A DNA stretch of 64,000 nt from Candidatus Omnitrophota bacterium (GCA_043826565.1 JBDRPX010000003.1:3614-67613); one strand, 5' to 3'; shown: positions 3,486 to 62,189, counted from the stretch's first letter. Numbers and translations are program-made. Notes: generated from the sequence alone by a model not told the origin.

Positions 3486-6485
3486 ATGTTTAAGCAAAAA
3501 GAAGGTTTATTGAGAAAAGCATTTATAGTATTCCTTATTAATATATTTATTTTTGCGAATACGCAAGGATCATTTGCGGCACAGGTATATGTTGAACATA
3601 AGAATATGGAGACTTCTACACTGGCTCCGAATCTGCGCATGACCATGGATACGCTGAGAATGGTATTCAATAGTTTTATGAATCCGTCTAAGGAAATTAA
3701 AATTCGCAATTTAAATATTTCCTGCGGAGTATTATCCGATCTGGTTAAAGAAATACAAGCAACTGAAACCGGTTGTATAATCACTAATAAAAATGGTGAT
3801 ACTTTAAATGTAGATGCTATTCAATACGGTGATTTCGATCTATTACAGGTCGGTGACATAAGGTATGTTGTCCGGGATACATCCCAAACAGTTGATCTCG
3901 CTCAGATAAATCCATTGGCAAATACGGCTTATCAGCAGTTTTTCGGAATTGATATTAATGCTATTTCTCCGGAACAGTTGGGATTTGCTCTGCCGGTTGC
4001 CGAAGCAAAAGAAAAAAATAGTGTGGATATGTTCCCGGTACGGGGACAGACTGCGGATACGGTTTTAGCATCCGCGCGTGAGTTTGTTCTAAAAGCACAG
4101 GGAATGGTAGATGCCGGATCTTCACTGAACCGCCGTTTGATAAACGAATTGCTGAATAATATTTTAATTATCGGTTTAAACGGCAGCTGGGAAGATTATT
4201 ATTTAGCTAAGGATGTGCTGGAAAAATATAGGGAAGTGAAGCATTTTTCTGATTATAAGAATATCATGGTCAATATGATGAACGGATTGTTTTTTTCCTA
4301 TGTCAGCTGTGACTGGAGAAAAGTAGAGGAGTACAGCAGGATAATTCTGCAGGGAGAAAAAAGCGTTTCCGGACGCACAAAAACAATGTTTGAATTACCC
4401 ATAGAAAATGCTCGTCTTCCAGTAAATAATACCGTAGATTATGAAGTGGAAAGCATAAAAATACTGGGTGAAGAAGAATTGGAGCATATGGCTACTGATG
4501 ATTCCCGGGAAGAATTTCGTTTAGGACAATCCGCGGTTGAGCAGGGCCGGATTGTTTCTATTCCCTTTTGCGGCGGTTCCGCGACAACAGTAAAAAACCT
4601 TATTGGAGAACATAAATTAGTGCATCAGGCGATTAAAGTGAGGGTGAAAAAAGCCGATGGAACTGAAGAAATAAGATATATAAGTGTTACGGACGCGCGG
4701 TTAGGTTTATTACGCGCGCAGAATCCCAACGCGCAAATTGCTATGGTTACCAGTGTCTCCGAGCCTGGTGGTGTGGATAGTGATAAAAGTATCAGACAGG
4801 CCATATCCAAGCGTTACCCCGGAGCCTTAGCCGACGGTAGAATCAGTATTTCTATGCAGAGAGCGCAAACAGTACTGAATAATAAAACCGGTTATCCTAT
4901 GCGTTTTGACAGCGGTTATACCGCGGCTTGCGCGGAAAACCATATGTGGGCTTTATTAGCGGTATTGATGAATAAAGAGGCGATGATTAATTATTTAAAA
5001 AACAGTGACGGTATTTTTTCTATCGGTAACGGTGATAATATATTGAATATTGTAAAAGAAGGCATGGTCGGCGCTATTTTAAAAGCCAGAGAACAAGGCC
5101 GGGCTTTGGCCACAGTTCCTCTGGCAGCATTATCTGCCGGAGACAGAAAAGGCGGAGTAATGGTGGAAGTTACTTATCGTCATAAAGACAGGCATTCGGA
5201 AAAAATAGTGCAAAAAGAGATCCGTGAGATCAGTGAATTCCCGACACGTCCGGGCAGCGGTTTTTCCGGAGTTACCATTGACGCGGAAAAAGAATTAGAG
5301 GCTTTTCAGTATTTTGAGCAAAAGGGCTGGTTTATTGAAGATTTGTTCGGAAATACCGCGAAAGCGTTTAATGTCGCGTTTTACGCGATTGACGGACGTT
5401 TAATAATTTCCCGAATATTTGGTTTTGATGAAAATAGCGCTGGTTTTATCGAACAGTTGGAAAAGATCAGTGCGGATGAATGGATAAATAGAATACTTGA
5501 TATTGTTTATGAGGTGCAAACTACGGTAAAGCCGTCCAAAGGAGTTCCTAATGAAAATGGAACAGATACGGTAAAAGGACGAATAATTGAAAATGCCGTA
5601 CAGGATTTTATTGTTAATGGCTTGGCATTATTAGCAAAAGAGGGAAAGCCTAATCTGGAAGCAGAGATGCTTATTGCCGACAGAAAGGATATTTTTTTAC
5701 CTTACAAAGGAACGGCCCAGCAGAGATTGGATAAAAAAGGAGAACCGATCCTGGGAACTAATGTTTATGATTTGATCGCCAATCAGGACCGCATTGCCGG
5801 AGTTATTGAGGAAATGGCTGCTCAGGGGCAATTAGCTGATTTAGGTAATGGAGAACAGGTGCTGGAAGCAATCCCGATTTATAATCTTGATGAAATTATG
5901 ATCGCCAGCAGTGATGAGGGTTTAACACCGAGTGATATTAGTGAAGATATGGTCATCCGTCATTCTTTGGCACGTTTGGCAAAACACACTCAATCAACCA
6001 GTGCTAAAATATTAAAATCTTTTGGTTTGATCCCGGATAATAAGGAAAACGCAAAAAAGAACTTATTGAGTATTCGTGATGCGGCGAAGAGCCTGAAAGA
6101 AGAAATCGAAACTATGGCCTATCACCGGGTAATTTATGATACGATTGATAATGTTTTAAGACCGAAATATAAATTAGATGGTATTCTTATTAATATTGAA
6201 ACAACAAGCCAGTTAATTGTCGAGAGGATGGATAGTGAAGGTTTTAATTATGCCGAAGCAATGTTAAGATTATCTGAGGCCTTGGGCGAACTTAGTGTTT
6301 TTGCTCATGATTTTTTAGAAGCATCTTCGCAGGAATTGATTTTAGGGGAAGTTGCTCCGAATAAAACAGCGATCGATATTACCAGGATGGTTTTAAATGG
6401 AAGAGCTCCGGTTGATCAGCAGGAACCGGGTAAAGCAAATGTAGAAGCCCTAGATTCCGTAAATATGGTTTTGCAGGCTATATAG
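3486..6485 (+). CDS. Large secreted or membrane protein (999 aa), member of the leader/LAP-motif family
   Basis: RBS AAAGGAAG before the ATG. N-terminal hydrophobic leader (KAFIVFLINIFIFANTQGSFAAQ) followed by TLAPNLRM, which matches the [C/Y]LAPxV motif that follows the leaders of four other proteins in this window. Confidence 0.65.
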   Translation: MFKQKEGLLRKAFIVFLINIFIFANTQGSFAAQVYVEHKNMETSTLAPNLRMTMDTLRMVFNSFMNPSKEIKIRNLNISCGVLSDLVKEIQATETGCIITNKNGDTLNVDAIQYGDFDLLQVGDIRYVVRDTSQTVDLAQINPLANTAYQQFFGIDINAISPEQLGFALPVAEAKEKNSVDMFPVRGQTADTVLASAREFVLKAQGMVDAGSSLNRRLINELLNNILIIGLNGSWEDYYLAKDVLEKYREVKHFSDYKNIMVNMMNGLFFSYVSCDWRKVEEYSRIILQGEKSVSGRTKTMFELPIENARLPVNNTVDYEVESIKILGEEELEHMATDDSREEFRLGQSAVEQGRIVSIPFCGGSATTVKNLIGEHKLVHQAIKVRVKKADGTEEIRYISVTDARLGLLRAQNPNAQIAMVTSVSEPGGVDSDKSIRQAISKRYPGALADGRISISMQRAQTVLNNKTGYPMRFDSGYTAACAENHMWALLAVLMNKEAMINYLKNSDGIFSIGNGDNILNIVKEGMVGAILKAREQGRALATVPLAALSAGDRKGGVMVEVTYRHKDRHSEKIVQKEIREISEFPTRPGSGFSGVTIDAEKELEAFQYFEQKGWFIEDLFGNTAKAFNVAFYAIDGRLIISRIFGFDENSAGFIEQLEKISADEWINRILDIVYEVQTTVKPSKGVPNENGTDTVKGRIIENAVQDFIVNGLALLAKEGKPNLEAEMLIADRKDIFLPYKGTAQQRLDKKGEPILGTNVYDLIANQDRIAGVIEEMAAQGQLADLGNGEQVLEAIPIYNLDEIMIASSDEGLTPSDISEDMVIRHSLARLAKHTQSTSAKILKSFGLIPDNKENAKKNLLSIRDAAKSLKEEIETMAYHRVIYDTIDNVLRPKYKLDGILINIETTSQLIVERMDSEGFNYAEAMLRLSEALGELSVFAHDFLEASSQELILGEVAPNKTAIDITRMVLNGRAPVDQQEPGKANVEALDSVNMVLQAI

Positions 6486-6583: not shown

Positions 6584-6967
6584 ATGGCTGAAGAAAAACG
6601 CAAATTTATTCGTGTTAAGACCCGCAAGTCTGTAGCTAACTGCCGATTACTCGCAAATGAGAGATCCGGGGAAAGTAAATTCGCGGTTTGGCCGGTTAAA
6701 GATCTTGGAATCGGCGGAGCTGCAGTTTATTGCGAAGATGATATTCCTTTGGAAACCCTGGCCTATTTGAATATGGACCTTGATGTGATCAGAAGAACTA
6801 TTGGGGTTATTGCTAAAGTAATCTGGCGTCAGGCCAAGGATGCCGGATATGAATTAGGTTTGCGGTTTTGCTGGTGGCCGTTGACAGATGACCGGGATGT
6901 CATGGCTGATTATATTGAAAATAAAATAACTTATAACGATACTTCCGAGGAAGTATTACTAGGATAG
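6584..6967 (+). CDS. PilZ-domain protein (putative c-di-GMP receptor), 127 aa
   Basis: N-terminal RxxxR-type motif (KRKFIRVKTRK) and DxSxxG-type motif (DLGIGGAAV), as expected for PilZ. C-terminal FCWWPLTDDRD motif shared with the two other small PilZ proteins here. Confidence 0.7.
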   Translation: MAEEKRKFIRVKTRKSVANCRLLANERSGESKFAVWPVKDLGIGGAAVYCEDDIPLETLAYLNMDLDVIRRTIGVIAKVIWRQAKDAGYELGLRFCWWPLTDDRDVMADYIENKITYNDTSEEVLLG

Positions 6968-7029: not shown

Positions 7030-9669
7030 ATGCGTGCTCTGAATTTGAAAAACAGGATGTGTTTCAAAATTACAGCTTTTATTATTTTACAGGTGTTTCT
7101 ATTGTCCAGTACAGTAGGCGCAGCTGGGTTGGATCATTTTGCAGTTAATGATCGCGCGGAGTGTCTTGCGCCGTCTGTGCGTTTGGATAACTCTCTGCTT
7201 ATGGATGTGTTTAAAAGAGCGTCGGAGCAAGGTACTGGGCTAGGGGTATTCTCTATTGAGTCAGAAGATATCAACACGGAAGTTGCTGAAGGACTAGTAA
7301 ATTCTTCAAAACAGGCAGCTGACGAGGGAACTTCCGGGCCGAATAATAGCGGGCAATCAGTTAATGGGACAAACAGTGCTCCCGGGCAGATGTTTTTTGG
7401 CAGCGGTAATCCGGAACAAATTGAAGAGCCGATCTGGCCGCCGCCGCAAGCAGAAGCGATCGTTGTCGGCAATGGAAATAATTTCGGCTTACCTTATTTG
7501 TGGAAAAAAGATGAAATGATCAAAGCTTTAAGAGCCTATGGCTTGGCTTGTAATTGGGATGAGTTTTCCCGGATGGAACTGCGCAGCCTTTTAAAAACAT
7601 TAGGAGAATTAATTGAAAAAGACGGTACTTTTGCCGCGAACTTAGCCGCGGTAAAGCCTTTGGCAGTAACCAGAGGTTCTTATTATGTTAATAAGGGAAG
7701 AAAAGACAGTAATCAGCTGGCAAAAATAGTGCAGAGTAAAGGCGAAACCCGGTTGGTATTGTATAAGCCTTTCTTTTATCAATTGATGTTCATGCCGCAA
7801 AACCGGCAGATGAAAAGAGAAGCTTTACAGCAGATCATTGGTGATTATGCGGAATCAAATTTATTTTTTGATAAGCCGCAAGCTAAAGGTAAAGAGGAAC
7901 AGCCAGTGATGGTTTCTTTTAATGATTTGGAACTTATGTCTGCTGCGGATGGTGACGCGAAATTAATAAAGATCGGAGTTCCGGAACATATGATCCCGAT
8001 CACAAAATATATTGTCTACAGATTAAAGCAGTATCGTGACCCGGCACCAGAACATCAATGGCAAAAGGGATTTTCCAATGTACGGATAGTTCGGGCGCCG
8101 GTTTTTTCCCTTAATGTTTTTGAAGCAGCTTTAAAAGAAGCTAATGTGCCTGCAGAGCATATCGATAGAAATCATATAGAAGAATTGTGTGAACTGATCA
8201 ATAAAGAGATGAAGGACCGGAAAGAAACGAGACTTGAGGTAATGTTTTTTAATAGCGCATTGCGAGTTGTTCCGGCGATCAGTCCTTTAAATGATAAACA
8301 AAAAGAAATAATTGTTAATTATTTAAACAGGGCAATTAGTGAGTTAAAAGAATATGAAAAACGTTTTTGGGTTGTTTGGGAAAAGCCGCGGGAAGACGGT
8401 GACGGCACAGAAACTGTTTTAGATATTTATGTGGATAAAATCCCTTATCTTTATACTCTTTCGCAGGATTGCCTGAAATATCCCGGAGCTCCGGATGGAG
8501 CCCGGATCTGGCGCATTGATCCGGCAAACACCGCAGAGCCGGCTAAGACATTATTAGATTTGGTGCTTGACGCATCTCTGGCTCCGCATGAAGGCGGTAA
8601 ACACGGGCACGCGATGAGAGTTCCGGTTGCGCAGGGAAGCGGTGATGCTTTAGCTATTCCCTGGGATGAGATCGAAGACGCGCAGGATCGGGAAAAAATG
8701 CTTATGGATTTCTTAGTAAGGATCGCGAAAAGAGATTGGCCGCAAATAATTCTGGATGTTTTTAAAGGCCCGCATAAATGGGTACCGGCATTAAATGCTA
8801 TTGGCAATGCTTTAAAACAAAAAGGCCAGGGCCCTTATTTGCCGGGGCCAAGGCCTATTACCCAGTCAATAATCAGAGAAGTTCAGGCTAATGCCGGAGT
8901 ATTTCATGAATCCGGGATCATGGGCCTTGCGGTCGGGCAATGGTTTTTCCATGTTTATTGCGCGGATGATATCGGCCGGATACACGCGAACAATAATATT
9001 GATTATTATTTGGCTACGCGCTGCACATTTTTAGATGCCAAACAGCGTGATGAGGTAAAACGCTGGGTAGTTAAAATTAATAATGCCCACCGCAGTTTAC
9101 TGGGGCAGAAACCGCAGGAATTAAACATTGTATTTGATACTGATGACGGTTATCTGTTTGGGACGAAAGTTCCCACAAATAGCGGCGGGCTGTTTGCGAA
9201 TTTAACAAGTAGAAAAATCGGAACAGGAATGTTTTCTTTACTGGCAAGTATTTTTACGCTCAAGAGTATTTTTGGGGTTCCGGCTGCGGAAGCGGCAGTG
9301 CCCGGAATTGTTAAGGCAGGATTTGCCGGTTCCGGAGGCTCATTACTTTTCGCTGTTGGAATTACTCTGGCGATTGGCGTTCCTCTGGTGATTATTGTTT
9401 TTTCCAGAAGATATCTAAACAGCAGAAGAGTTTCCCTGGCTTTGCGTGCCGGTATTGGCGGGCCGGTAGAATATACTGCTGGTAATAAATATCCTCTGGG
9501 AACAGGATGGGGGGATATTATACCGGCTAATAAAGATATTATTAGCGCAACAGCAGCAGCAGCCAGCGCTTTTGTCCGAAAAAGAGGATCAATGGTAACT
9601 CCTCCGGTTGATAATGGTAGTGGAGTCGGCAGCCGTAATACAGGTGTTTTGATAGAGTCATCAATTTAG
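7030..9669 (+). CDS. Leader-family membrane or secreted protein (about 880 aa) with a C-terminal TM anchor
   Basis: The ORF track starts at GTG 6991. I prefer ATG 7030, which has AGGAGG 11 nt upstream and aligns the leader (KNRMCFKITAFIILQVFLLSSTVGAAG) with the other family members. ECLAPSVRL motif follows. A hydrophobic stretch lies near the C-terminus (LLFAVGITLAIGVPLVIIVF). Confidence 0.6.
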   Translation: MRALNLKNRMCFKITAFIILQVFLLSSTVGAAGLDHFAVNDRAECLAPSVRLDNSLLMDVFKRASEQGTGLGVFSIESEDINTEVAEGLVNSSKQAADEGTSGPNNSGQSVNGTNSAPGQMFFGSGNPEQIEEPIWPPPQAEAIVVGNGNNFGLPYLWKKDEMIKALRAYGLACNWDEFSRMELRSLLKTLGELIEKDGTFAANLAAVKPLAVTRGSYYVNKGRKDSNQLAKIVQSKGETRLVLYKPFFYQLMFMPQNRQMKREALQQIIGDYAESNLFFDKPQAKGKEEQPVMVSFNDLELMSAADGDAKLIKIGVPEHMIPITKYIVYRLKQYRDPAPEHQWQKGFSNVRIVRAPVFSLNVFEAALKEANVPAEHIDRNHIEELCELINKEMKDRKETRLEVMFFNSALRVVPAISPLNDKQKEIIVNYLNRAISELKEYEKRFWVVWEKPREDGDGTETVLDIYVDKIPYLYTLSQDCLKYPGAPDGARIWRIDPANTAEPAKTLLDLVLDASLAPHEGGKHGHAMRVPVAQGSGDALAIPWDEIEDAQDREKMLMDFLVRIAKRDWPQIILDVFKGPHKWVPALNAIGNALKQKGQGPYLPGPRPITQSIIREVQANAGVFHESGIMGLAVGQWFFHVYCADDIGRIHANNNIDYYLATRCTFLDAKQRDEVKRWVVKINNAHRSLLGQKPQELNIVFDTDDGYLFGTKVPTNSGGLFANLTSRKIGTGMFSLLASIFTLKSIFGVPAAEAAVPGIVKAGFAGSGGSLLFAVGITLAIGVPLVIIVFSRRYLNSRRVSLALRAGIGGPVEYTAGNKYPLGTGWGDIIPANKDIISATAAAASAFVRKRGSMVTPPVDNGSGVGSRNTGVLIESSI

Positions 9670-9688: not shown

Positions 9689-10054
9689 ATGTCAGATAAA
9701 GAAAGAAGACAATACAAAAGAATTAAAGTTGAAAAGATTGGGGCGGATTACCGTCTTGTTGACCCTAATTTTTGGGCCCAGTCCAGAGCGCAGGGGAAAA
9801 ACAGTTTGCAGGATATTAGCCTTAGCGGAGCATCGTTTAATACCGGAGATATTTTGCCGGAAGATTCTGTTTTGGATTTAAATCTAAAATTGGGAAGTCT
9901 GATAAATATTGATGGGATTTGCGGCCGCATTGTCCGCGTACGAAAACTCACTAGCGAGAATTTTGAAATTGGGGTTGTTTTTTCCTGGTGGGAAAGAGAA
10001 GAAGATAAGCAAAATCTCGTAAAATTTATGGAACAAACCGGAACTAAACAATAG
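9689..10054 (+). CDS. PilZ-domain protein (putative c-di-GMP receptor), 121 aa
   Basis: ERRQYKRIKVEK (RxxxR) and DISLSGASF (DxSxxG) motifs. C-terminal VFSWWEREEDKQ motif. Confidence 0.7.
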   Translation: MSDKERRQYKRIKVEKIGADYRLVDPNFWAQSRAQGKNSLQDISLSGASFNTGDILPEDSVLDLNLKLGSLINIDGICGRIVRVRKLTSENFEIGVVFSWWEREEDKQNLVKFMEQTGTKQ

Positions 10055-10551: not shown

Positions 10552-13500
10552 TTGATGTATTACTCAAACAAAAAATTCAGTCTCGGTTTTAAAATAATCG
10601 CTGCGGTGATTATCCAGGCTTTTTTGGTGACTGATATTGTTTGGGCTGCCGGTGGAGATCTCCGCTGGATAAATGATCAGGAGAATACATCACGCTCGGC
10701 TTCTAAAACTTCCTATCTTGCGCCTACCGCAAATATTAACAAAGGCATATTCCGCACAAAATTTGATTTAGTAGTTTCGCTTATTAATGCTATGGAGAAT
10801 CGGGATAATACGGAACTATTGGCTAAACATGGAATTAATGTGTTTAGTGAAAATGTCCTCTCTATTCAGGGTGAAAAAGAAACACTTTATATTTATGATC
10901 GGAATGCTGAGGGTATTCCTTTGTTCATAACCGGGGCAGAGCAAAAGATTATATTTAATGGGTATGTGATTTCTGCTGTGCCCAATGAAAATGCTGATGC
11001 GCAAAGTCTGAATGTTCCGGAGGGTCAGGCAAGTGTTCTGAGCCGGCGTGAATTTAGTGATAAGCTTAAAGTTTTGGAAACGCAGGGAAAGGACTTTAAT
11101 CAGGAGGAGGCTCTGGAATTAGTAAAGCAATCAATACTTTTAAGCGGGCTTACCGGTGGGCAGTGGAAGGATGAAAAGTGGGTTATTCAGAAAGATGCGA
11201 TTGTCTTGATGCAGAGCGGTATGGTTGTTCGGATGCCGACTTCTGCGGGTAAGACATTTGTATTTAACGGTACCGGGATATTAAGAAGCCTGGCCAATAA
11301 ACTAAATCCGGATGCGCAAAGGGAAGTATCTATTGTTCATACTGAAGAAGGCTTGATTGAAAGAGACGCGAGAAATGCCGGAAAAGTAAATGGCCGTTTC
11401 GGGCTGAAAACAGGATATGTTGTTTCACGTGATGGTAAAAGAACAGCTTATTTTGTTGATGCTAATGGACAGGAGCAGGAAACCACCGAGCAGGAGCTTT
11501 ATAAAGAAGCAAATATCGTTTATGTGAATATTTATAATTTCATCCATCGTTTTTTGGATGACCGGTTTACCGCCAGAAAAGCCGGGGATCAGGCTTTACG
11601 CTGGGGAGAGCAGACTTATTTTGTTGCCTTTGACGAAGGTGATGTTCCATTAAAGCACCATGTTTCTACGCCTTGTATAATTTCCGGAGGAGAAACCCTG
11701 AATGCGGATGATCTCGTGAAGCGGGCGGAACAGCTGCTTAAGATGCAGGAAATCATTGATCAGCTTATTCATGAAGGACTCTTGAATGAAGACGGAACCA
11801 GGGCCGAAAATGAATTAGCGGAAGTTAAAACTGGTTCTCAGACCGCGACTCTTACGAGAAAAGGAAAAGCCTGGCTTAAAGATAAACTTCAGCAGGTAGA
11901 GCAATACAAAAATAATCAAGGTAAACAATCTATTTTTGCGGATGATGCTTTATGGGAAGAGCATGTCGAGCAAGCGCTTTCCGCTTATTTATTTTACCGT
12001 AAAGGTGAAGCCTATAATATCTCCGAGAATAATGAAATCGTGATCATTGATAAAGATACCAGCGGTATGCAGTTAGCCGGAAGGCGCTGGAGCCATGGAC
12101 TTGATATTGCGGTAAGGTTAAAAGAAAACAGAACCAGAGATGAAAACAGTAAGCTGGAAATTAAACCTGACCAGATGACGATTGCTTCCATGATGCTTCC
12201 GGAAATCCTCAGCGATACGTTGGGACTTGTTTCCGGAATATGCGCGGCTTCGGCGACGATCAATAAAGATACCGCGGATATGTATGGTTTGGATTTTAAA
12301 TCTCTTAGCGGTGAAGCTTCCAAAAGAACAGAGCGGGTAATTATGAGTTCTGATCAGGCTGAATCAGCGCGGAATGCGCTTAAGGCAATTGATGTTCTAA
12401 AAGCGGGAGTTGCGGCTGATGAATCAATGCAGGATTGGGGCCTTCCGGAAAAATCAGGATCGGTATTAATCCGCTGTGATGGAGAAGTGCAGGTTCGTGA
12501 GTTTGCCGATTTGCTTATAGCAAATACTCAGATGAAGGGCCGGAATATCCGGCGGATTACTCAGGATGGGAAAATACTTGATGCCAGCGGCAAAGAAGTT
12601 CCGGGAATAACTATTGATGATCTTGATTCTTTGGTTAGTGATGAAACAATTGATAATGTAATAATTGAATTTACTTCCCAGAATCGCGAAGTGCCGGCGG
12701 ATGGGAAAATGCTTAAAGATCGGATAGAAGATCTTTCTCAGCATCCTAAAGTTATAATTGTATCCACACACTTAGCCGGACGCGGAGTTGATTTTAAGGG
12801 CGATGATATGGTGGTCATGTCTTTAAGCGCTGACCCGGCTGAAGAAACTGATGTGCAGTTGAGAGGCCGCGGCGGCCGTGACGGCAGAGTGGGTTACTTT
12901 TTCGGATTTTGGTCAGTCCAGGATGCGGTATTTACAAAATATACAAGTCTGGTTAATGAAGAACTGAAATATTTCACCGCTAAGGTTAAACCCGGACAAA
13001 CGCATACTTTTGAGATCACCAATGATAGTAAGACCGCGGGTGATAGTGAAAAAACTGTAATGGCAATGCGCGAAATAATAAACGCGCATAATCAGAATAT
13101 GCGGCGCGCGCAAAAAGCTTTTGGTGAATTATCATGGAATGAGGGGGATGAAAACGGTTTTGGCGAAGGTTTTGCCAGAACGCACTCCAGAGCCAGAGAG
13201 CGGATCATTTCTAAAGGAATAGAAGGATTAAATATTCCGGAGGATGTTTTAGCCGCGATCAAGACTAAAATCAGCAAGGTTGTTAAACAGAAGCGCAAAA
13301 CTCTTACCGGGATACCCAGCTCGGCAACGGTTATTTCGATATTAGAAGATGAGTTTGGGTTAAAGAATGTTGATGCTGATATTGCACAGCAAGCATTAGT
13401 TTCGGCACAATATAACCTGGAAATGGCTTTATTTACGGTTATTGCTGATGTGCTTCAGGCTAGAGCATTACAAATCGTTGATCAGCAATGGATGCGTTTT

Positions 13501-16500
13501 GTTACCGATTCAGAATACCAGAAACATCGGCTGGAAAAAGCACTGGCGAGATCGGGATATCGGAGACAGTTTATTCCCCAACAGCAGTTTGATTCGGAAA
13601 TAAGGCTGGTCATTACGGAAATTTTTGAACGGATAAATAAGGATACCAAACGGCGGCTGGGTGAAGGGGTTATCGGTCTGGCTCATCAACTTGCGGATAA
13701 AACTCCTACGGATACGGAAATGTCCGAAGCTAGCGCTGCCGCTCAACCAGACCGTGTCCCGTTTACGGCGCGCATGAAATTATTGGCATTAAAAATAATT
13801 CCTTCGGCAGTTATGATTGCGGCTAATGTCGGTCTGGCTTATGGACTGGGCTTAGTATTTAAAGGACTTACTTTAGGCGGGGTTGAAGCTGCTTCCGGAT
13901 TACCCATAATCGGAAATTTGATTACATTACTTCTCGGTTTGGGGCCGGTGGCACTTGTGGCGATTACTATTGGTACGATAATTATTGCCTGGTCACTTAA
14001 TTCTCAAATAAAAAGATTATCACAGGTTGATTCTACTATTGCGAAGATGGCTGAAGCTATTTCCTTGGGGCATAGGAAAAAAGCTAAAGAATTAGGAGCA
14101 ACGGTTGTTACTTCTTCATGGCGTAAAACTCTTACGGTTACTGCTACTTTCGCGCCGCTGGTCGCGGCCATGACTCTTTTTTCACTTTTAGGTTCTGCTC
14201 CTTTTACCGCGGGAAGTGTGGGAGTTATTGTCCTGCTGGCTTCAGCGGTATTAGGTATAATAAGTGTTGTTTCTTCCGGATTGCTCTTGGCGACTTCACG
14301 TAAAGATATGAAAAATGCCCCGAAACTTCCCATGACGGCAACAAAAAGATTTTTCCGCGGAATGATCGGAGGAGCTTTAACTATTTTAGGTATGGGAGCA
14401 TTTTTGTTCGCTTCCGGCGGCACTATGGGGCTGCCGATTCTTGCTGGTATCGCGGCGATTATTGCCAGCGGGTTTATTGCCCGTAAAATATTCTCTATAA
14501 GCAGTGATGATGTGGCCGCGAAAAAATGGGTTACTCCGATGGGTTTTGTCGCGGGTATCGCGGTCGGACTGGGAATTATTTTAGGGGTGGTCCCGTTCTT
14601 TGGCGCTCAGGTTTTTGAATCGATGACTACAGCAATGCAGACCGGAGCTATGCCCGGAGGCGGAGTGCTTAAGGTTGTGGGATATCTGGTAATGGGATTG
14701 TTTGCTTTTCAGGGAATAATGTTTGTTGGAGCTCAGCGCTATGCCGCAAAAAGAATTGCCGGGCAGGAAGGCGGGCTTACCGGAGAAACAGGACAGATAA
14801 AGCGTAAACAGCTGGGCTACATGATCAGAGCCTCAGCACTTAATGCCCGCATGGTCATGATCGCTGTCGGTGCAGTTGTCGGAATAGCTTTGCTGCTTAC
14901 CGGAGCATGGGTTGCTCCGGTTGCCGGATGGGGAATCCCGATGTGGGGCGCACGATTACTCGCTGCTTTGCCGGTGATGGCTTTATTTAGTGCCTTGGGA
15001 TTTGTTTTGCAGCGTTTTATTACTCGGGCATTAGATAAACCGGTAAATTATTCCTCTCTTGCCAAACGAAAAAGAAAAGATTTTCTCAGTATCCAATCGC
15101 AGTTAGAAAAGGTTGGCCTTAGAGATTTTTCAAATAATATCGGCGATGTAGTTAATGAATTTAAGAAGGATGTTGCTAAAACAAATAGTCCTTTGGAATT
15201 GGCTTATCAAAAGCTTGGCGGTATTTCTTCGGAAGATAAGCTTTTTCAGGCATTTCTTAATGAACTGCAGAACTCAACGCCTAATGACGGAAGATATTTT
15301 TCTCAGGCAGAGATTGATCATCTGGTTGCCAAAATACCGGAGGCATTATTAACTGCTCAACAGCGCCCGGTTTTCCGAAAAGCCGTTACCGCGGTTTTAG
15401 TTGAACTTAATCTGGCTAAAATCGGATTCGATAGATTATTCTACACTGCTTCCAATCCGGAAAAAATCACCAAAGGAATGAATTCTTTTCTTATGCCGCT
15501 TATGGGCACTTCTATGCTTGTGGCTGCTCCGACTGCTGCGGCAGTTGCCCAAAGCCAATATGCCGGAGTTCCCTATACTAATGTTGAGGTCAATGTCGCG
15601 GAAGCTCCGCAGAAGGTTCGGGATTACTATAGCACTTTAGCGGGGAAGATGTTTGAGACTGTTCCGGCAGAAGAAGATGCTGATGCCCAGGTTCTTCCAC
15701 AGCAGGGAACGATTGATTGGGGGACACAGGTTGAATCATTTACAGCTAAGCAGATAATCAGCCGGATAGAAAAAGACGCGGCGGAAAAATTTAATGCGGA
15801 TATTGAGCAAGCGCGGCAAGAAGCAGAACAAGCGCAGACCGAACGTGAGAAAATAGCGGCTAATCTGAAATTAATGGAGCTTGTTATTAACCGCAAGAAA
15901 TTTATTTTAGACCAGATTGATAAACATGCGGAGGTTACCGCGGAAGATAAACAAAAAGCAAAAGATATTTTAACCGATGTCAGCCGGCTGGAGGCACTTA
16001 TCCAGTATCAGCAGATGATTGATATGCGGGAAGAGATCCTGAATAACCAAAAAGAAAGACTGGATAAACTTCAGAAACAATTAGCTGCCGCAGCGGATCA
16101 GGTGCAAAAAGATATTCTAACGAAAACAATAGAAGATCTTAAAAAACAAATCCAGGAAGCAGAATTGACGGTTACCAGACATCGGGAAGCCTATGCAGCA
16201 CAGGCACAGGAAAAAGGAATCGATCCGCTGCTTTCTACTAAAGAGCTTACCGATCAAAAAGACCGGATGATTGCTTCGGTAATTGGTATTCCTGCCTACA
16301 TTATTAAATTGTCACAGGAAGTTGAAAGAATATTAAGTTCACAGCAGATGCTTAAACAGCAGGAAGAATTGTTGAATCTAAGGGAACAAGCCGAAGCTGA
16401 GCGTAAGAAGCAGGAAGCTGCTGAGCAAGCCAGAAGAGAAGTTGCGGAAAGAGCAGCAGCGGTAACCAGAGTAGATACGGTAACCGATGGTTCCGGACCT

Positions 16501-19500
16501 CCGCCGGAAGATAAAGAGCCGGCAGTTACACGGACAGATCCTGTTGCCGGGCCGGCTCAAAGAAGAGATTTTTCCGTGGCAGAAGTAAGCAGTGCTTATT
16601 TGAATAACGGCTACAGTCCGCAGGATGTTTCCGCTATCCTTAATACAGCAGATGCTCCGGCAACCGAAGCATTCCAGGGAATAATTCAAGCAAAAGGTGT
16701 GGCCTATTCTAAGCAGGCAATCCAGGATTTAATAAACGGCGGTTATAAAGAAGCGGATGTCTATGCCGGGGCAGTTACCGAACTTCAAATCAGAGGCTAT
16801 AATGCCGAACAGATCGTAATATTACTGCTTGATCCTGTAACCGCGGGCACAGAACCTACTGCCGAGCAGATGGAAAGAGCAAAGCTCTTAGCCGGTATAT
16901 TACTTAAAGGAGTAACCGAACAGAATAAATTGCGCGCGGCATTGGATTCTCTAATATTAATTCCGGAAAGATTAGGCGTTGATAGTCCTCCGGTTCAACT
17001 GGGAGCAATGCTTACCGGCCGGCCGTCGCTTAGTGATGTTTCTCTAAAAGCAAAACTTGACGCGCTGCAGCAGAAACTTGATAACAAAGAAAAAATCACA
17101 CAAGGTGATATTGACAGTGCTTATGATTTAGTCGAGAGAGTTCTTAAATGGCGGGTTGCTGAAACCGCATTAAAAGACATGGCTAGACAGCGGCAGCAGC
17201 AAAGGGAGCAATCAGCATCAACATTAGTTGCTCCGGTTGATGCTACAAATATTCCTCGGGCCATAATCGTAGATGAAGACGCGGATACGGTTACTATTCC
17301 CCGGGCAATAATTGTCAGCGAGGATTCAGATAATATTACTATTTCGCGAAAGAGCATTACCGAGGCTTCTCTTCCGGAGTTACCGGCATGGGGGCCTCAG
17401 AATGAAGGGATTTCAGATGTAGGAGTTTTACCGCCAAAAGACGCTATTGGTTCGGATAATATTATTATTCCCCGGGCAATAATTGTCAGTGAAGATGCGG
17501 ATACGGTTACTATTCCTCGGGCAATAATAGTTGAAGAGAATGCCGTGGCTAGCACTCCTCAACCGGATGCAGAACATATTGTCCGAAGCGGAGATCGTGT
17601 CGGTGAAGTCATGGTTGACCTGGCTTCGAATCCTACGCAGTGGCAGGCGATTGTAAATATTTACAATAAATTTGCGCATGATAATCCGCAATTGGGATTA
17701 AAATTAATCAGAGTTTCCGATGGTACTTCCGGAGTTAATATTTCCTGGGTCAATCCTGTGGATGCGGTAAATACTGCCGCGGGCTTGACCGTGACTTCTT
17801 TAGCCGATCAGCTTGCCGGTAAAAAAGCAGTTACTGCGGCAGATTTTGGTATTAGCCTGGATATTGACCTGGTGATTCGCATTGAAAGCAATGCCGACCC
17901 GCGGGCGGAAAACGCTAAGAGTAAAGCCAGAGGGCTGATGCAGATAATGAAAGAAGGAGCATTAGCCGATTGGAATAAATATCATCCGCGGGAACAGTAT
18001 TCTTTTGACGATATGTGGGACGCGGATAAAAATCGGAGAGTAGGCAGTTGGTATCTAAATCTAAGAATACCCCAGATGCTCCAGGCTAGTAATAAAGAGA
18101 TCACTTTGGAAAATATTTTATGGGCTTACAATGGCGGGATTAAAAAGGTGGTTGACGGTGTCCTTCCTAATGAAACCAGAGATTATATTAGAAAATATAG
18201 AGTCGGCCTAATAACAACCGCGGATAATCTTACGGACCGGATTACCGATCTTCTGGTCAGCAATGATATTAGAGGATTGATCCAGGTTGCCAGCGGTGCT
18301 AAGCCCGGGGAAGTCCTCGCAACTACAGCGGCGGCGCCAAAAGAGGGAACAGCAATAACTCAGGCTAAACAGCGGCTTTTAGAAGCTGTGGGGCGTTATC
18401 AGGAAATGGAACAAAGGTATCAGGAACTTGAACTGGAATATTCGCGTTACTTTGATGTTATTCAAAGCGGCGCGTATTTTCTGGATCTTAAAAAAGGTGT
18501 TATTGATGTTAATGCTGTAGCCAAGCTGAAACTGCAGTTGGAAAAGCTAAAGAAAGTTGATCTGGAATTTAGAAGAACCCAGTTGGAATTTATTCAGGAT
18601 TCTCTGGAGGCCTTAGAAGCGGAGATCAAAAAGCTGGAAGAGTCCGCGGAAACTTTACAGAGCAATGATGATATTCTGAATTCTTCCTTAGCCAGACTCC
18701 AGGAACAGATAGAAGAAACCGCAGCTAATATTACTTCTGCCGGAGTACAGATAGAAAAACTAAAGAGTTCATTGAAATTGTGGCAGCAGGCGCTTGCGGA
18801 TGTTAAAGCCGGGAAAAAGGTAAACATACCGCAATTACTGGGAATGGTCAGAGAAGAAGATAAAATATATGCCCAGCAGGTTGCCGCGGCGAAAAAAGGA
18901 GATGTTACACAATTAACCGCGGAGCAGACGAGATTGGGAATTGATCCTGATCGCGCTTTGATTATTACTAATGTACAAATTGATGCTAATGCCGTAATCC
19001 TGAATCAGGCAGGGATAGATATTAAAACGCTTAATTTGATGATCGCGAATAATCAGTGGCTAGTTCATCGTTTAGGTGATCGTGTCGAACTTGCTCCGTT
19101 TGCCGGAAGTTCTCCGGTCAAGATTGAATATTTTATTTTAGGACACAATTTAACACCTCTGGCCCGGGAAAGTGCTTTTAACACGGCGATCACCTATTGG
19201 GAAAAACAGCTCGAATGGGCAATTGCCGATATTCAATATCTGCAAAATATACGGCTTATTTCTCCGGAAGTTTCCGATGAAGAAAAGAAAATCATTCAAG
19301 GTCAGGTAAGTAATCTTCGGGATAAAGTGCAATTTGCTGAAGCTACGATCGCTGATCTTAGGGGTGATCTTGATTATTGGAAATTATCCCCCACCCAAAG
19401 AACTAATGCCCGGGCTCAGCTTGCGGTAAGGAAGTTGAAAGTAGTTAAAGGGAAAGTTTCCTTTTTTACCGACGTGTTAGCTTTGTTGAAGGATATGGAA

Positions 19501-46257: not shown

Positions 46258-46641
46258 ATGGGAAGAAGTAGTGTTATGGATATGATACAGGATAAACGTC
46301 AATGCAAAAGGCGGCGCACAAAATACGCGTCCATTAGTTTGCGGTCTCTGGACCCGCAGGCGTGGTTTAAGTTCTGGGGCGGCGCGGAGTGTTTTCTGCG
46401 TGATCTCAGTTTGCTGGGAGTGGGAGTTTACAGCCAGGAAAAGCTTCCTATCGGCACGCGCTTAAGCATTGACCTGCGTTTGGGAAAACAGGCCAGCAGT
46501 ATCCGGGTTTTCGGCCGGATCACCTGGACGGAAAAAGAGGATGATCAGTACCGCTCCGGAGTAAGCTTTTCCTGGTGGAGAGATGACCAGGATAAAAAAA
46601 TTGTCAGTAGTTTTGTGGAAAGACTTGGATTAGTTAACTAA
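46258..46641 (+). CDS. PilZ-domain protein (putative c-di-GMP receptor), about 120-127 aa
   Basis: KRQCKRRRTKY and DLSLLGVGV motifs. C-terminal SFSWWRDDQDKK. The start is ambiguous among ATGs at 46258, 46276 and 46282. Confidence 0.65.
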   Translation: MGRSSVMDMIQDKRQCKRRRTKYASISLRSLDPQAWFKFWGGAECFLRDLSLLGVGVYSQEKLPIGTRLSIDLRLGKQASSIRVFGRITWTEKEDDQYRSGVSFSWWRDDQDKKIVSSFVERLGLVN

Positions 46642-61542: not shown

Positions 61543-62189
61543 TGAACAAAAAAGGTCTTACTCTTATTGAAATCCTTGTTTCCATGGGGATTTTAGTTAT
61601 GCTGGTAGCGATTTTATATTCTGTGTTTAGTCTGGCTTTACGCGGCTGGAAAAAATCCGATAATATGCTGGAAAACTCAGCCCAAGCCCGCACCATCTTA
61701 GAACGTATGTCCCGGGAAATATCTTCGGCTGTAGTTAAGCCTTCTGCGGGAATTCAATGCCGGGGATATAATACCGGAAGCGGCATAAAATCTAATAGTA
61801 TTGCGGATGAGTTTTTCTTTATTGCACCGCTTAAGCAGGATAATAAAGATGGTTCGGATCTGTGTGAAGTTGGTTATTGGCTGGATAATACTAATGCTTT
61901 ACGACGACATTATAAAATTGATGAAAGAGGAGCCGGAAGTTCCGAACTGGATTTTAATTTTTCCACGGGAACGAGCAATACTTTTGCCGAAGAAATTACG
62001 GATCTGCAGTTTGAATACTACTCGGGGAGTGACCTGGTAAATCCGGTTATGGCCTGGGATTCACAGACAGACGGCGTTCCGGCAAAGATCAAGATAACGA
62101 TTACAGTGGAAACCGGAAAAGGCTCAGCAGTGACAAATCCCGATTTTTTATCCCGCAGTTATAGTGTTATTGTATCACTTCCTCAATAA
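61542..62189 (+). CDS. Prepilin-type N-terminal cleavage/methylation domain protein (T2SS pseudopilin or T4P minor pilin-like)
   Basis: ATG 61542 overlaps the upstream TAA (TAATG). MNKKGLTLIEILVSMGILVMLVAIL has the G|(L/F)TLIE prepilin motif with a Glu at position +5. Confidence 0.7.
   Translation: MNKKGLTLIEILVSMGILVMLVAILYSVFSLALRGWKKSDNMLENSAQARTILERMSREISSAVVKPSAGIQCRGYNTGSGIKSNSIADEFFFIAPLKQDNKDGSDLCEVGYWLDNTNALRRHYKIDERGAGSSELDFNFSTGTSNTFAEEITDLQFEYYSGSDLVNPVMAWDSQTDGVPAKIKITITVETGKGSAVTNPDFLSRSYSVIVSLPQ

What the first reader, a model, noticed from the sequence alone, without database searches (positions are those of the whole stretch)
10552..10760. Family-specific N-terminal leader shared by five proteins (KxxFK-x-I-x-IQAFLxxDxxWAAGG then [C/Y]LAPxV)
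The shared leaders are KKFSLGFKIIAAVIIQAFLVTDIVWAAGG, KKRIFLKVISVVLIQAFLMLDFCWAGG, KKKWFKTISFLLIHAFLLLDIAWAGG and KNRMCFKITAFIILQVFLLSSTVGAAG, with a looser version in 3486-6485. Each is followed 10-20 residues later by a conserved CLAP/YLAP/HLAP/TLAP/CLSP motif. Generic Sec signals are not conserved in their h-region, so this looks like a dedicated sorting or recognition signal, analogous to YSIRK or KxYKxGKxW signals, and possibly the element the paired PilZ proteins read.
Basis: seen in the sequence. Interest (0 to 1): 0.8.

Follow-up and report, generated by a model that had tools for sequence, protein, structure and literature searches.

The report
Conserved export leader of Omnitrophota giant-protein family
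Five proteins in this window, one of them 11,888 residues long, start with the same 60-residue two-part signal, which marks hundreds of otherwise unrelated proteins in the uncultured phylum Omnitrophota and is often encoded next to a previously unnoticed protease-like gene.

Summary
A profile built from the five N-termini finds 250 protein clusters among 1.84 billion, almost always at residue 1. Every named hit is Candidatus Omnitrophota.

The module has two parts:
- A Sec-like signal peptide with an unusually fixed core, F-[KR]-I-I-x-x-x-L-I-[QN]-A-F-L-L-L-D-I-A-W-A. The -3/-1 cleavage rule is met after AWA in 144 of 150 sequences.
- A "LAP box" 8-21 residues later: [T/C/H]-L-[A/S]-P-x-[LVI]-Q-I-[ND]-x3-[FL]-x3-F.

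The protein bodies are unrelated. They include SecA-like giants, GGDEF proteins, glycosyltransferases, PPDK, methyltransferases and HEAT repeats. Leader genes form tandem arrays of up to six. Synonymous sites have diverged, so selection acts on the peptide.

Neither Pfam nor NCBIfam has a matching model, and neither giant-gene preprint mentions the leader.

The PilZ idea is not supported. Only 5 of 58 leader genes are followed by a PilZ gene, and 3 of those are in this window.

A better candidate partner turned up. Window 1817-3463 encodes a secreted protein with a TIKI/TraB/ChaN/erythromycin-esterase fold and near-invariant D-x-H, E and H residues. Relatives (about 27-68% identical) sit directly upstream of leader arrays in 12 loci.

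Best reading: a lineage-specific, two-part export and sorting signal. The mechanism is inferred, not shown.

The parts
10555..10764 (+). Leader module of the 11,888-aa giant. Signal peptide is aa 1-31 (K6 K7 ... F12 K13, IIAAVIIQAFLVTD, VWA|AGG). A 21-residue spacer follows, then the LAP box at aa 53-70 (SYLAPTANINKGIFRTKF).
   Evidence: leader HMM E 9e-18 at the ORF start. A 10,644-aa giant in syntenic L027 carries the same GGDL[RS]W leader subtype.
3486..3668 (+). Leader module of the 999-aa protein. The h-region is degenerate (generic-looking signal, SFA|AQ) but the LAP box is intact (STLAPNLRMTMDTLRMVF).
   Evidence: E 1e-9; scores with the LAP-only HMM, not with the h-region HMM.
7030..7212 (+). 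Leader module of the 879-aa protein (FKITAFIILQVFLLSSTVGA|AG ... ECLAPSVRLDNSLLMDVF).
   Evidence: E 1e-15. The database representative P0002 starts at this Met.
46820..46993 (+). Leader module of the 460-aa protein (KKRIFLKVISVVLIQAFLMLDFCWA|GG ... HHLAPALQLTNQMIQQAH).
   Evidence: E 7e-23. AF2 of aa 1-70: helix 2-36, disordered 37-49, helix 50-69, mean pLDDT 67.
62335..62517 (+). Leader module of the 492-aa protein (KKKWFKTISFLLIHAFLLLDIAWA|GGTE ... DCLSPMVQIGNDSLQVYF). This is close to the family consensus.
   Evidence: E 5e-24.
10555..46218 (+). Giant ORF. Leader first, then a SecA-like motor at about aa 200-800 (Walker A SAGKT, Walker B DEGD, GRRWSHGL, RGRGGRDG, and the PPXD preprotein-binding domain). 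No hydrophobic segment follows until aa 1074, then about 31 predicted TM segments. SLT lytic transglycosylase at aa 2439-2532.
1817..3463 (+). p584/P0161: a secreted or membrane-anchored protein with a TIKI/EreA/ChaN/TraB-fold core and a ~300-aa helical insertion. It is the candidate hydrolase encoded at the head of leader-gene arrays.
6584..6967 (+). PilZ protein 1 (RKFIR, DLGIGG), downstream of the 999-aa leader protein.
   Evidence: Pfam PF07238, E 3e-7.
9689..10054 (+). PilZ protein 2 (RQYKR, DISLSG), downstream of the 879-aa leader protein.
   Evidence: Pfam PF07238, E 1e-8.
46258..46641 (+). PilZ protein 3 (RQCKR, DLSLLG), downstream of the giant. This is the arrangement already reported for Omnitrophota giants.
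   Evidence: Pfam PF07238, E 2e-9; 10.1101/2023.11.21.568195 section 11.
61479..62189 (+). T2SS pseudopilin-J-like gene with a prepilin N-methylation motif, just upstream of the fifth leader gene. It is a possible element of a second secretion step.
   Evidence: Pfam N_methyl 6e-6, T2SSJ 2e-4.

Best explanation
The element is a two-part N-terminal export and sorting module specific to Candidatus Omnitrophota.

**Part 1** is a Sec-type signal peptide. It has a basic n-region ending in an almost invariant F-[K/R]. A 13-residue hydrophobic core follows with fixed residues (I-I-x-x-x-L-I-[Q/N]-A-F-L-L-L). The c-region is D-I-A-W-A, and its A-x-A fits signal peptidase I cleavage before G-G.

**Part 2** lies 8-21 residues into the mature chain. 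This is the LAP box ([T/C/H]-L-[A/S]-P-x-[L/V/I]-Q-I-[N/D]-x3-[F/L]-x3-F): an extended stretch followed by an amphipathic helix.

**Proposed action.** The module takes the N-terminus across the cytoplasmic membrane with the N-terminus inside, exposing the LAP box on the outer face. There a dedicated factor recognises or processes it. The best candidate is the secreted TIKI/TraB-fold hydrolase encoded at the head of many leader-gene arrays. The neighbouring T2SS/Tad-like machinery is a possible next step. The rest of the protein is either exported whole (27% have no further TM segment) or stitched into the membrane (73% have more TM segments, and 43% have one within aa 80-200).

**What it tags.** The module marks a large, fast-diverging, tandemly arrayed gene family, at least 11 genes in this MAG. 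The family includes the giant proteins.

**Shown:** the conservation, the N-terminal position, the Sec-like anatomy, restriction to the phylum as far as sampled, the arrays, and adjacency to the TIKI-fold gene.

**Inferred:** actual export, cleavage at AWA, any role of the TIKI-fold protein, and the final destination of the cargo.
For: - **Reach of the profile.** 250 clusters among 1.84e9 proteins, with matches at the N-terminus.
- **Taxonomy.** All 14 named cluster representatives (of 20 looked up) are Candidatus Omnitrophota; one non-representative cluster member is filed as Paceibacterota. 12 of 13 GTDB loci are Omnitrophota MAGs.
- **Column conservation** and the bipartite consensus.
- **Signal-peptide anatomy.** The -3/-1 rule is met at AWA| in 144/150, against 9-107/150 at neighbouring positions. 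The n-region net charge is +3.2, and the next 12 residues average -0.3.
- **Unrelated bodies**.
- **No gene conversion**.
- **Modules are coupled but separable.** 59 genes have both parts. 8 score with the LAP-box model only; 7 of these have it behind a generic signal peptide and one is a start-calling artefact.
- **Generic signal peptides nearby are not hit.** 59 signal-like N-termini in the same loci do not match the leader HMM.
- **Arrays** of up to 6 leader genes.
- **TIKI-fold partner.** Fold and motif. It has its own N-terminal signal or anchor, so it faces the same side as the LAP box. It lies directly upstream of the first leader gene in the window and in L002, L005, L008, L012, L013, L020, L024, L027, L029, L032 and L033.
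- **Precedent.** Tiki/TraB peptidases have been proposed as leader-cleaving enzymes in RiPP loci (PMC8939145).
Against: - **Cytoplasmic-type cargo.** Many cargo domains need cytoplasmic cofactors: GT4/TreT, PPDK, SAM methyltransferase, RelA/SpoT-type HD, NUDIX, AAA ATPases. Several such proteins have no TM segment between leader and enzyme.
- **The giant's own motor.** An apparently intact SecA-like ATPase follows the leader with no TM segment for 1,040 residues. A plain export signal would put these enzymes where they have no ATP, SAM or NDP-sugar. That only makes sense if they act in another cell.
- **No experimental data.** No SignalP or DeepTMHMM run, and no proteomic N-termini.
- **Incomplete linkage.** The TIKI-fold gene is absent upstream of several arrays (L006, L015, L021, L022), and the link rests on adjacency alone.
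- **Narrow sampling.** Loci were recovered with a single peptide pattern (LIQAFL[VLI][LM]D), so the context statistics cover only part of the family.
Confidence: 0.5

Rival explanations
1. The leader is an uncleaved signal-anchor that works as an intramembrane assembly tag. It stays in the membrane as TM1. Its fixed polar residues (Q/N, D) and the W pair with a common partner helix, for instance in the TM clusters of the giants. The short periplasmic LAP loop serves as a docking handle. A TM2 at about aa 90-200 returns the chain to the cytoplasm, so the enzyme domains work inside the cell as a membrane-tethered assembly.
For: - 85 of 117 family members of at least 300 aa have further TM segments, and 50 have one within aa 80-200.
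- GGDEF-type members have several TM segments before the cytoplasmic GGDEF domain.
- This would explain the cytoplasm-type domains.
- Polar residues fixed inside a hydrophobic helix are typical of helix-helix contacts (general knowledge).
Against: - The hydrophobic core is only 13 residues long, interrupted by Q/N and followed by D. That length fits a cleaved signal, not an anchor.
- Small residues at -3/-1 are conserved in 96% of sequences, which an uncleaved anchor does not need.
- 32 of 117 members, and the first 1,040 residues of the giant, have no TM2. Their ATP-, SAM- or NDP-sugar-dependent domains would still end up outside.
- The LAP box survives behind replaced, generic signal peptides.
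Confidence: 0.27
2. The conservation has no special function. It is simply the slowest-evolving part of one old paralogous family of surface proteins whose bodies diverge quickly under diversifying selection. The multigene surface-protein families of mycoplasmas behave this way (own knowledge).
For: - The genes lie in tandem arrays, as products of duplication would.
- Leader subtypes follow body types: the GGDLRW leaders on giants, the KSKFSLIFR leaders on GGDEF proteins.
Against: - Ordinary signal peptides drift freely. Here specific residues (F, K/R, Q/N, F, D, W, A) are kept in 73-99% of 150 clusters that share less than 50% identity.
- Synonymous sites have diverged.
- A second motif in the mature chain is conserved at a variable distance, and it persists where the h-region has been replaced.
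- Bodies contain unrelated Pfam domains, which implies domain shuffling onto a retained leader.
Confidence: 0.1
3. It is a double-glycine-type leader, cut after G-G by a C39 peptidase domain and exported by that machinery. C39 domains are present in some neighbouring giants.
For: - G-G follows AWA or AWAA in roughly half of the family.
- In the WAAGG variant, the D at -8 and the hydrophobic residues at -7, -12 and -15 fit the classical GG-leader register (own reading against the Havarstein consensus, from memory).
- Giants carrying Peptidase_C39 lie upstream in L027 and L028.
- C39 domains near giant N-termini are reported in 10.1101/2023.11.21.568195.
Against: - Classical GG leaders are amphipathic. 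They lack a basic n-region and a 13-residue hydrophobic core.
- The AWA residues are more conserved (126/150 A at -1) than either G (76 and 81/150).
- In the commoner WAGG variant the register is off by one.
- No C39 domain was found in this window, including the giant.
Confidence: 0.07
4. The leader is the element bound by the neighbouring PilZ proteins, giving c-di-GMP-gated recognition of the nascent N-terminus.
For: - In this window three leader genes are each followed by a canonical PilZ gene with RxxxR and D/NxSxxG motifs.
- The same arrangement occurs in L004, L017 and L027.
- About 9 of 150 leader proteins carry GGDEF motifs, so c-di-GMP signalling is part of the family's biology.
Against: - Only 5 of 58 complete leader genes are followed by PilZ.
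- Long leader arrays contain none.
- The PilZ association tracks giant genes, as already published.
- A cytoplasmic PilZ could only reach the short n-region before export.
Confidence: 0.04

Closest known systems
KxYKxGKxW signal peptide plus AST domain of accessory-Sec (SecA2/SecY2) substrates such as GspB (own knowledge)
   Same: - A family-specific signal peptide is combined with a conserved stretch at the start of the mature protein.
- It is found on very large surface proteins.
- It is linked to a second, divergent SecA-type motor. Here the SecA-like module sits inside the giant.
   Different: - There is no sequence relation: no NCBIfam or Pfam hit at E<=10.
- The conserved residues here lie in the h- and c-regions, not the n-region.
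- The lineage appears Gram-negative-like (T2SS/secretin genes reported near giants).
- No SecY2 or Asp genes were seen.
- The SecA-like module is part of a cargo protein, not a separate ATPase.
YSIRK-G/S signal peptides of Gram-positive surface proteins (own knowledge)
   Same: A conserved motif inside a Sec signal peptide routes a subset of secreted proteins to a particular destination.
   Different: - The motif and its position differ, and there are no LPXTG cargos.
- No model match.
- This module has a second box in the mature chain.
ESPR (extended signal peptide region) of autotransporters and TpsA proteins (own knowledge)
   Same: A conserved N-terminal signal extension is found preferentially on very long secreted proteins and is thought to control the pace or route of inner-membrane targeting.
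   Different: - ESPR is an extra segment in front of a normal signal peptide. Here the normal h- and c-regions themselves are conserved.
- No model match.
Double-glycine leaders cut by C39 peptidase domains
   Same: - G-G lies at the end of the leader in about half of the members.
- C39 domains occur in giants of related loci.
   Different: - The leader is hydrophobic and Sec-like.
- AWA is better conserved than GG.
- There is no C39 domain in this window.
TIKI/TraB/PrgY/ChaN/erythromycin-esterase superfamily (for the partner gene at 1817-3463)
   Same: - D-x-H, E and H lie at the C-terminal ends of strands, like the 2His/2Glu motif described in PMC6254334.
- Tiki trims the N-terminus of mature Wnt, and TraB/PrgY act on signal-peptide-derived pheromones (own knowledge).
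- Tiki/TraB peptidases are proposed leader-cleaving enzymes in RiPP loci (PMC8939145).
   Different: - There is no sequence-level match to Pfam or to PDB sequences.
- Asp replaces the first Glu.
- A ~300-residue helical insertion is present.
- Substrate and activity are unknown.
Omnitrophota giant-gene loci (West-Roberts et al. 2023, 10.1101/2023.11.21.568195; 10.64898/2026.06.07.730766)
   Same: The window is such a locus. It has a giant ORF with a SecA-like domain and many TM segments. PilZ lies directly downstream, followed by an MFS transporter, glycoside hydrolases and a pseudopilin.
   Different: Those papers report predicted signal peptides only as a topology class. They do not describe a conserved leader, the LAP box, the arrays of smaller leader genes or the TIKI-fold genes.

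Membership tests
Sec-type, signal-peptidase-I-cleaved signal peptide | Positively charged n-region at the extreme N-terminus | tested here: met
   Mean net charge +3.2 over a ~11-residue n-region. K/R at the position before the core in 148/150.
Sec-type, signal-peptidase-I-cleaved signal peptide | Hydrophobic core of about 10-15 residues | tested here: met
   13 residues (I-I-x-x-x-L-I-Q-A-F-L-L-L). Kyte-Doolittle 19-mer scores are 1.7-2.2 in the window proteins.
Sec-type, signal-peptidase-I-cleaved signal peptide | Small residues at -3 and -1 of a c-region | tested here: met
   144/150 obey the rule at A-W-A|; the neighbouring registers score 9-107/150.
Sec-type, signal-peptidase-I-cleaved signal peptide | Actual translocation and cleavage | not testable with these tools
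   Needs N-terminal proteomics or reporter fusions. SignalP and DeepTMHMM were not available.
YSIRK-G/S, KxYKxGKxW, ESPR, Tat, prepilin (N_methyl) and lipoprotein signals | Match to the family's curated model or motif | tested here: not met
   Seven leader peptides gave no NCBIfam hit and no relevant Pfam hit at E<=10. There is no RR, no lipobox L-x-x-C at the cleavage site and no G|FTLxE.
Double-glycine leader / C39 system | G-G at the cleavage site, with an amphipathic leader that is not Sec-like | tested here: inconclusive
   G-G is present in roughly half (G 76/150 and 81/150). But the leader has a full Sec-like n/h/c structure, and AWA is better conserved.
Double-glycine leader / C39 system | C39 peptidase encoded with the substrates | tested here: not met
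   No Peptidase_C39 in any window protein, including the giant. It is present in giants of L027 and L028.
   5 of 58 followed by PilZ and 7 of 58 preceded, in 24 loci.
   The structure tool takes single chains from the window only, so no complex could be modelled.
TIKI/EreA/ChaN/TraB superfamily (gene 1817-3463) | Parallel beta-sheet core flanked by helices | tested here: met
   [not shown]
TIKI/EreA/ChaN/TraB superfamily (gene 1817-3463) | 2His/2Glu catalytic motif (PMC6254334) | tested here: inconclusive
   D91-x-H93, E121 and H491 are conserved in at least 90% of 31 homologs, and each lies at the C-terminal end of a strand. The first acid is Asp, not Glu. Model coordinates could not be inspected for clustering of these residues.
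TIKI/EreA/ChaN/TraB superfamily (gene 1817-3463) | Sequence-profile membership (Pfam TraB_PrgY_gumN, Cofac_haem_bdg, Erythro_esteras) | tested here: not met
   No such Pfam hit at E<=10 for four homologs. No PDB sequence hit at E<=10 with the family profile.
Omnitrophota giant-gene locus | ORF over 10,000 aa with a divergent SecA DEAD/PPXD module and many TM segments, PilZ downstream, and glycoside hydrolases and transporters further downstream | tested here: met
   P0161 identifies the source as a Candidatus Omnitrophota MAG, locus tags ABII88_.

The most novel reading that the evidence does not exclude
The leader plus LAP box may be the address label of a previously unrecognised secretion route by which predatory or epibiotic Omnitrophota deliver dozens of enzymes, and the giants themselves, to the surface or into the cytoplasm of a prey cell. 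The enzymes include glycosyltransferases, PPDK, methyltransferases, (p)ppGpp-type HD hydrolases, patatin, NUDIX and AAA ATPases. This would explain why enzymes that need ATP, SAM or NDP-sugars sit behind a signal peptide. In this reading the TIKI-fold hydrolase trims or licenses the LAP-tagged N-terminus. The divergent SecA-like motor embedded in the giants would be the dedicated translocase that reads the conserved h-region, and the nearby T2SS/Tad-like apparatus would complete the export.
Probability: 0.2. Interest if true: 0.9.

Novelty: new variant of a known kind. Interest (0 to 1): 0.72.

Why it matters
- **A searchable label.** It gives a simple sequence tag (a 60-position HMM) for what may be the exported or prey-directed proteome of a whole uncultured phylum of ultra-small predators and symbionts. 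Most of its large proteins are currently "hypothetical".
- **A marker for true N-termini.** It marks the real start of giant genes, which helps judge whether a giant ORF in a fragmented assembly is complete.
- **A sharper, testable paradox.** Both giant-gene preprints raised the question of cytoplasm-type enzymes and a SecA-like ATPase sitting behind a signal peptide. This finding turns that into concrete experiments.
- **A concrete candidate partner.** The TIKI/TraB-fold family can be expressed and assayed.
- **A rare kind of signal.** Conserved sorting signals inside Sec leaders are few (YSIRK, KxYKxGKxW, ESPR), and each one has revealed a distinct pathway.

Tried and rejected
- **Word-indexed protein search with the short leaders.** It returned one hit each time, so it is unsuited to 60-residue queries. 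The exhaustive HMMER search was used in its place.
- **The search for related loci with broad alignments.** A seven-sequence subset worked, but only through the single pattern LIQAFL[VLI][LM]D. The locus sample is therefore biased toward one leader subtype.
- **Pfam and NCBIfam.** Neither gave a hit on whole leader proteins or on leader peptides.
- **Gene conversion as the cause of conservation.** Rejected by codon comparison.
- **PilZ pairing.** Rejected as a general feature.
- **A lineage-typical signal peptide.** Rejected, because GH, TPR, TIKI-fold and other secreted proteins in the same loci have unrelated signal peptides.
- **Sequence searches for the TIKI-fold protein.** Pfam and PDB sequences gave nothing. 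Only the fold search was informative.
- **AF2 of the 70-residue leader with five sequences.** Low confidence (pLDDT 67). It says only helix, disordered spacer including LAP, then helix.
- **The first domain census.** The alignment-mode Pfam scan returns counts only, without per-protein positions. A second scan of ten proteins lacking further TM segments was needed.
- **TM prediction.** All TM calls are Kyte-Doolittle windows (19 residues, threshold 1.6), not a trained predictor.
Full report
**1. What is in the window**

The 64-kb window has 42% GC, and its long ORFs all lie on the + strand. Protein P0161 is 100% identical to the product of 1817-3463. It is annotated [quoted passage not shown] on a 206-kb contig.

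The centre of the window is an 11,888-residue ORF (10552-46218). It carries:
- a SecA preprotein-binding domain (aa 421-520)
- a helicase C domain (aa 722-777)
- an SLT lytic transglycosylase (aa 2439-2532)
- about 31 predicted TM segments after the N-terminal one

A PilZ gene, an MFS transporter, GH2/GH72-like hydrolases and a T2SS-J-like pseudopilin follow it. This matches the published picture of Omnitrophota giant-gene loci (10.1101/2023.11.21.568195).

**2.

Between the five proteins, BLASTP similarity is limited to the first 25-66 residues.

A profile of the five leaders (A2) was searched by HMMER against 1.84 billion representative proteins. It found 250 clusters at E<=1e-3 and 26 at E<=1e-10. 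In 142 of the best 150 the match begins within the first 12 residues. The other eight look like mis-called starts. Hit lengths run from 55 to 6,383 residues.

A family HMM (A3, 133 sequences) was searched against all six frames of the window. It hits only the five reported ORFs, each at its start.

All 14 cluster representatives that carry a source name (of 20 looked up) are Candidatus Omnitrophota; one further member of one cluster is filed under Paceibacterota, probably a mis-binned contig. Twelve of 13 loci found in the GTDB species genomes are Omnitrophota MAGs, and the thirteenth is labelled Planctomycetia.

**3. Anatomy**

Column counts over 150 sequences give this consensus:

M-x(2-10)-[KR-rich]-[FL]-[KR]-[IV]-I-[SA]-x-[IV]-L-I-[QN]-[AS]-F-L-[LV]-[LM]-D-[IF]-A-W-A-[GA]-G-x-[ED]-x-[LI] ... 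[ST]-[TCH]-L-[AS]-P-x-[LVI]-Q-[IL]-[ND]-x-x-x-[FL]-x-x-x-F

The most conserved positions are:

| Position | Count (of 150) |
|---|---|
| F in the core | 146 |
| Basic residue before the core | 148 |
| D | 119 (plus 21 N) |
| W | 110 |
| A at -1 | 126 |
| L of LAP | 149 |
| P of LAP | 131 |
| Final F | 117 |

The first part has the full layout of a Sec signal peptide:
- The n-region has net charge +3.2.
- The hydrophobic core is 13 residues long.
- The c-region is D-I-A-W-A.
- The -3/-1 rule is met at AWA| in 144 of 150 sequences, against 9-107 at neighbouring registers.
- The 12 residues after the site are slightly acidic.

The spacer from AWA to the L of LAP is 8-21 residues, median 13.

AF2 on the 70-residue leader of the 460-aa protein, with only five sequences, gives helix 2-36, a disordered stretch 37-49 that includes LAP, and helix 50-69. 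Confidence is low.

The two parts are coupled but separable. Among 226 called genes in 24 non-redundant loci, 59 have both parts. Eight score with the LAP-box model but not the h-region model. Seven of these have a LAP box behind a generic-looking signal peptide, including window 3486-6485; the eighth (L027_06) is a start-calling artefact. Three have only the h-region part.

**4. It is selection on the peptide, not recent copying and not a generic signal**

Where two window leaders share a residue, they share the codon in only 5/14 to 8/12 cases.

The other secreted proteins of the window have ordinary, unrelated signal peptides. These are 49927, 52568, 53388, 54135 (probable lipoprotein), 55526 and 59356. 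In the 24 loci, 59 of 128 signal-like N-termini do not hit the leader HMM. That sample is enriched for leader genes, so the true fraction of leader-type signals per genome is lower.

No Pfam or NCBIfam model matches the leader peptides even at E<=10. The two Omnitrophota giant-protein preprints mention predicted signal peptides only as a topology class.

**5. Cargo**

The bodies are heterogeneous. Among 63 family members, Pfam finds HEAT repeats (5), DUF218 (4), HD, several SAM methyltransferases, FBPase_glpX, TreT/GT4 glycosyltransferases, PPDK_N, patatin, GDPD and NUDIX. Longer members carry AAA_5, UPF1-like helicase domains and cNMP-binding plus GGDEF. Nine of 150 contain a GGDEF motif.

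By Kyte-Doolittle windows, 85 of 117 members of at least 300 aa have further TM segments. Fifty have one within aa 80-200, and 32 have none.

Members with no further hydrophobic segment still carry cofactor-dependent enzymes behind the leader:
- GT4/TreT (P0039)
- PPDK (P0058)
- RelA/SpoT-type HD (P0092)
- Methyltransf_28 (P0106)

In the window's giant, the leader is followed by a SecA-like motor with no TM segment until aa 1074. The motor has:
- Walker A (SAGKT)
- Walker B (DEGD)
- GRRWSHGL
- RGRGGRDG

This is the main difficulty for a plain export model. Both preprints note the same puzzle for giant proteins.

**6. Genomic organisation**

Leader genes form tandem arrays:
- six in a row in L020
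- five in L015
- four same-strand in L022, with a fifth divergent gene beside them
- four in L002, L006 and L021
- four in L009, three of them consecutive

The window's own MAG has leader genes on other contigs as well: P0050 (ABII88_05355), P0121 (ABII88_09075) and four more in L032. That makes at least 11 per genome.

An iterated PilZ HMM finds a PilZ gene directly after only 5 of 58 complete leader genes, three of them in this window, and directly before 7. PilZ therefore accompanies giants and a few neighbours, not the leader family as such.

**7. A co-localised candidate factor**

The gene just upstream of the first leader gene in the window is 1709/1817-3463.

- It has 28 homologs 57-68% identical and three more distant ones (29-41%). 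All that carry a name are Omnitrophota or "PVC group" hypotheticals. This contrasts with the unalignable leader-protein bodies.
- A relative lies directly upstream of a leader gene in the window and in L002, L005, L008, L012, L013, L020, L024, L027, L029, L032 and L033. The L029 copy is about 30% identical, and the gene after it has only a weak, h-region-only leader match (E 2e-4).
- Two or three paralogs of about 29-37% identity occur per locus. One lies just upstream of the window in L031.
- AF2 with 31 sequences gives a confident model (pLDDT 84). It has an N-terminal helix, a small parallel beta-sheet and a ~300-residue helical insertion.
- D91-x-H93, E121 and H491 are conserved in at least 90% of homologs. 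Each lies at the C-terminal end of a strand. The pattern resembles the 2His/2Glu motif of that superfamily (PMC6254334).
- No sequence-level match to Pfam or PDB exists.
- Its own signal or anchor places the fold on the same side of the membrane as an exported LAP box.

Tiki/TraB peptidases have been proposed as leader-cleaving enzymes in RiPP loci (PMC8939145). Tiki trimming the N-terminus of mature Wnt is recalled from my own knowledge.

The link to the leader family rests on adjacency and shared phyletic range only. Several arrays (L006, L015, L021, L022) have no such gene directly upstream.

**8. Interpretation**

The best-supported reading (confidence about 0.5) is a lineage-specific, two-part export and sorting module. 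A Sec-type signal peptide with a constrained core puts the N-terminus across the membrane. A LAP box in the mature N-terminus is then read outside the cytoplasm. The TIKI-fold protein is the leading candidate reader or processor, and the T2SS/Tad-like machinery known to flank giants is a possible next step.

It works like the KxYKxGKxW signal plus AST domain of accessory-Sec substrates, like YSIRK, or like ESPR. It is not a member of any of them.

Rival readings:
- **Uncleaved anchor and assembly tag (0.27).** This would keep TM2-containing enzymes in the cytoplasm. It fails for members without a TM2 and does not explain the conserved A-x-A.
- **No special function, only slow drift in an old paralog family (0.10).**
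- **Double-glycine/C39 leader (0.07).**
- **PilZ recognition (0.04).**

The most novel reading not excluded is that the module labels prey-directed effectors of a new secretion route in which the giants' SecA-like motor takes part (probability about 0.2).

**9. Limits**

- No trained signal or topology predictor was available.
- No complex modelling was possible.
- No whole genomes could be scanned.
- Locus sampling used a single peptide pattern.
- Every step beyond conservation, anatomy and gene neighbourhood is inference.

Noticed in passing
window 1817-3463; L031 1277-2854; L027 1670-5899, 6098-7687, 10001-11692; L028 6058-9891, 10001-11608: An Omnitrophota-restricted family of secreted proteins with a TIKI/EreA/ChaN/TraB-fold core and the motifs IQD[AL]HC, [VL]EG[GA][ST]G and GGFHT. 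It has 2-3 paralogs per locus and no Pfam or PDB sequence match. It often lies between a C39-bearing giant and the leader-gene arrays.
   Followed up: yes
window 57374-59344: A 656-aa protein. Its N-terminus looks like a PilZ domain (RKYIR, DVGFEG) but misses the Pfam threshold. One TM segment follows, then a C-terminal ~300 aa that is 24% identical to giant residues ~6056-6443 (E about 1e-13).
   Followed up: partly
window 51807-52484, 52568-53218, 53388-54044: Three tandem paralogs of 216-225 aa with ordinary signal peptides and no Pfam hit. They lie between two GH2_C/GH72-like genes and after an MFS_2 transporter. One homologous copy lies in the syntenic L003 block; L015 shares the MFS and GH genes before its sequence ends. 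They may be carbohydrate-binding proteins.
   Followed up: no
window 61479-62189 and 59356-61542: A T2SS-J-like pseudopilin gene with an N-methylation motif overlaps the last 64 nt of the preceding 728-aa secreted-protein ORF. It sits directly before the fifth leader gene.
   Followed up: no
L005 435-2974, L006 6065-8627, L013 4200-7243, L024 2-955, L033 6895-9395: A TPR protein of ~455 aa (Pfam Peptidase_MA_2 on record for the L033 copy) and a HemN-like radical-SAM gene (~379 aa) are conserved just upstream of one leader array in L005, L006, L013 and L033. L024 holds only the HemN-like gene, cut at the locus end. This could be plain synteny or a second candidate processing enzyme.
   Followed up: partly
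L029 3536-13500 (also L030): In a more distant lineage, a 30%-identical TIKI-fold gene is followed by three long proteins: FBPase_glpX plus aldolase (1,269 aa), PPDK (1,484 aa) and TIM plus PGK (2,182 aa). Each begins with a signal-like hydrophobic segment. Only the first gives a weak leader hit, and none has a LAP box.
   Followed up: partly
L027 1-1605 and L028 1-5738: Giants of ~7,800 aa carrying Peptidase_C39 lie upstream of the TIKI-fold genes and leader arrays in two MAGs. L027 is syntenic with the window's left half.
   Followed up: partly
L003/L019 12566-13204: A leader h-region (44-aa ORF) and a LAP box (start of the next ORF) lie in different reading frames next to a short transposase-like fragment. 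This is probably a frameshifted or disrupted leader gene.
   Followed up: no
window 1817-1960; L028 10001-10130: The TIKI-fold proteins have a conserved motif right after their own signal peptide: SFLKT[KR]VE.I, or SFLAPKTREI in L028. It loosely resembles the LAP box.
   Followed up: no
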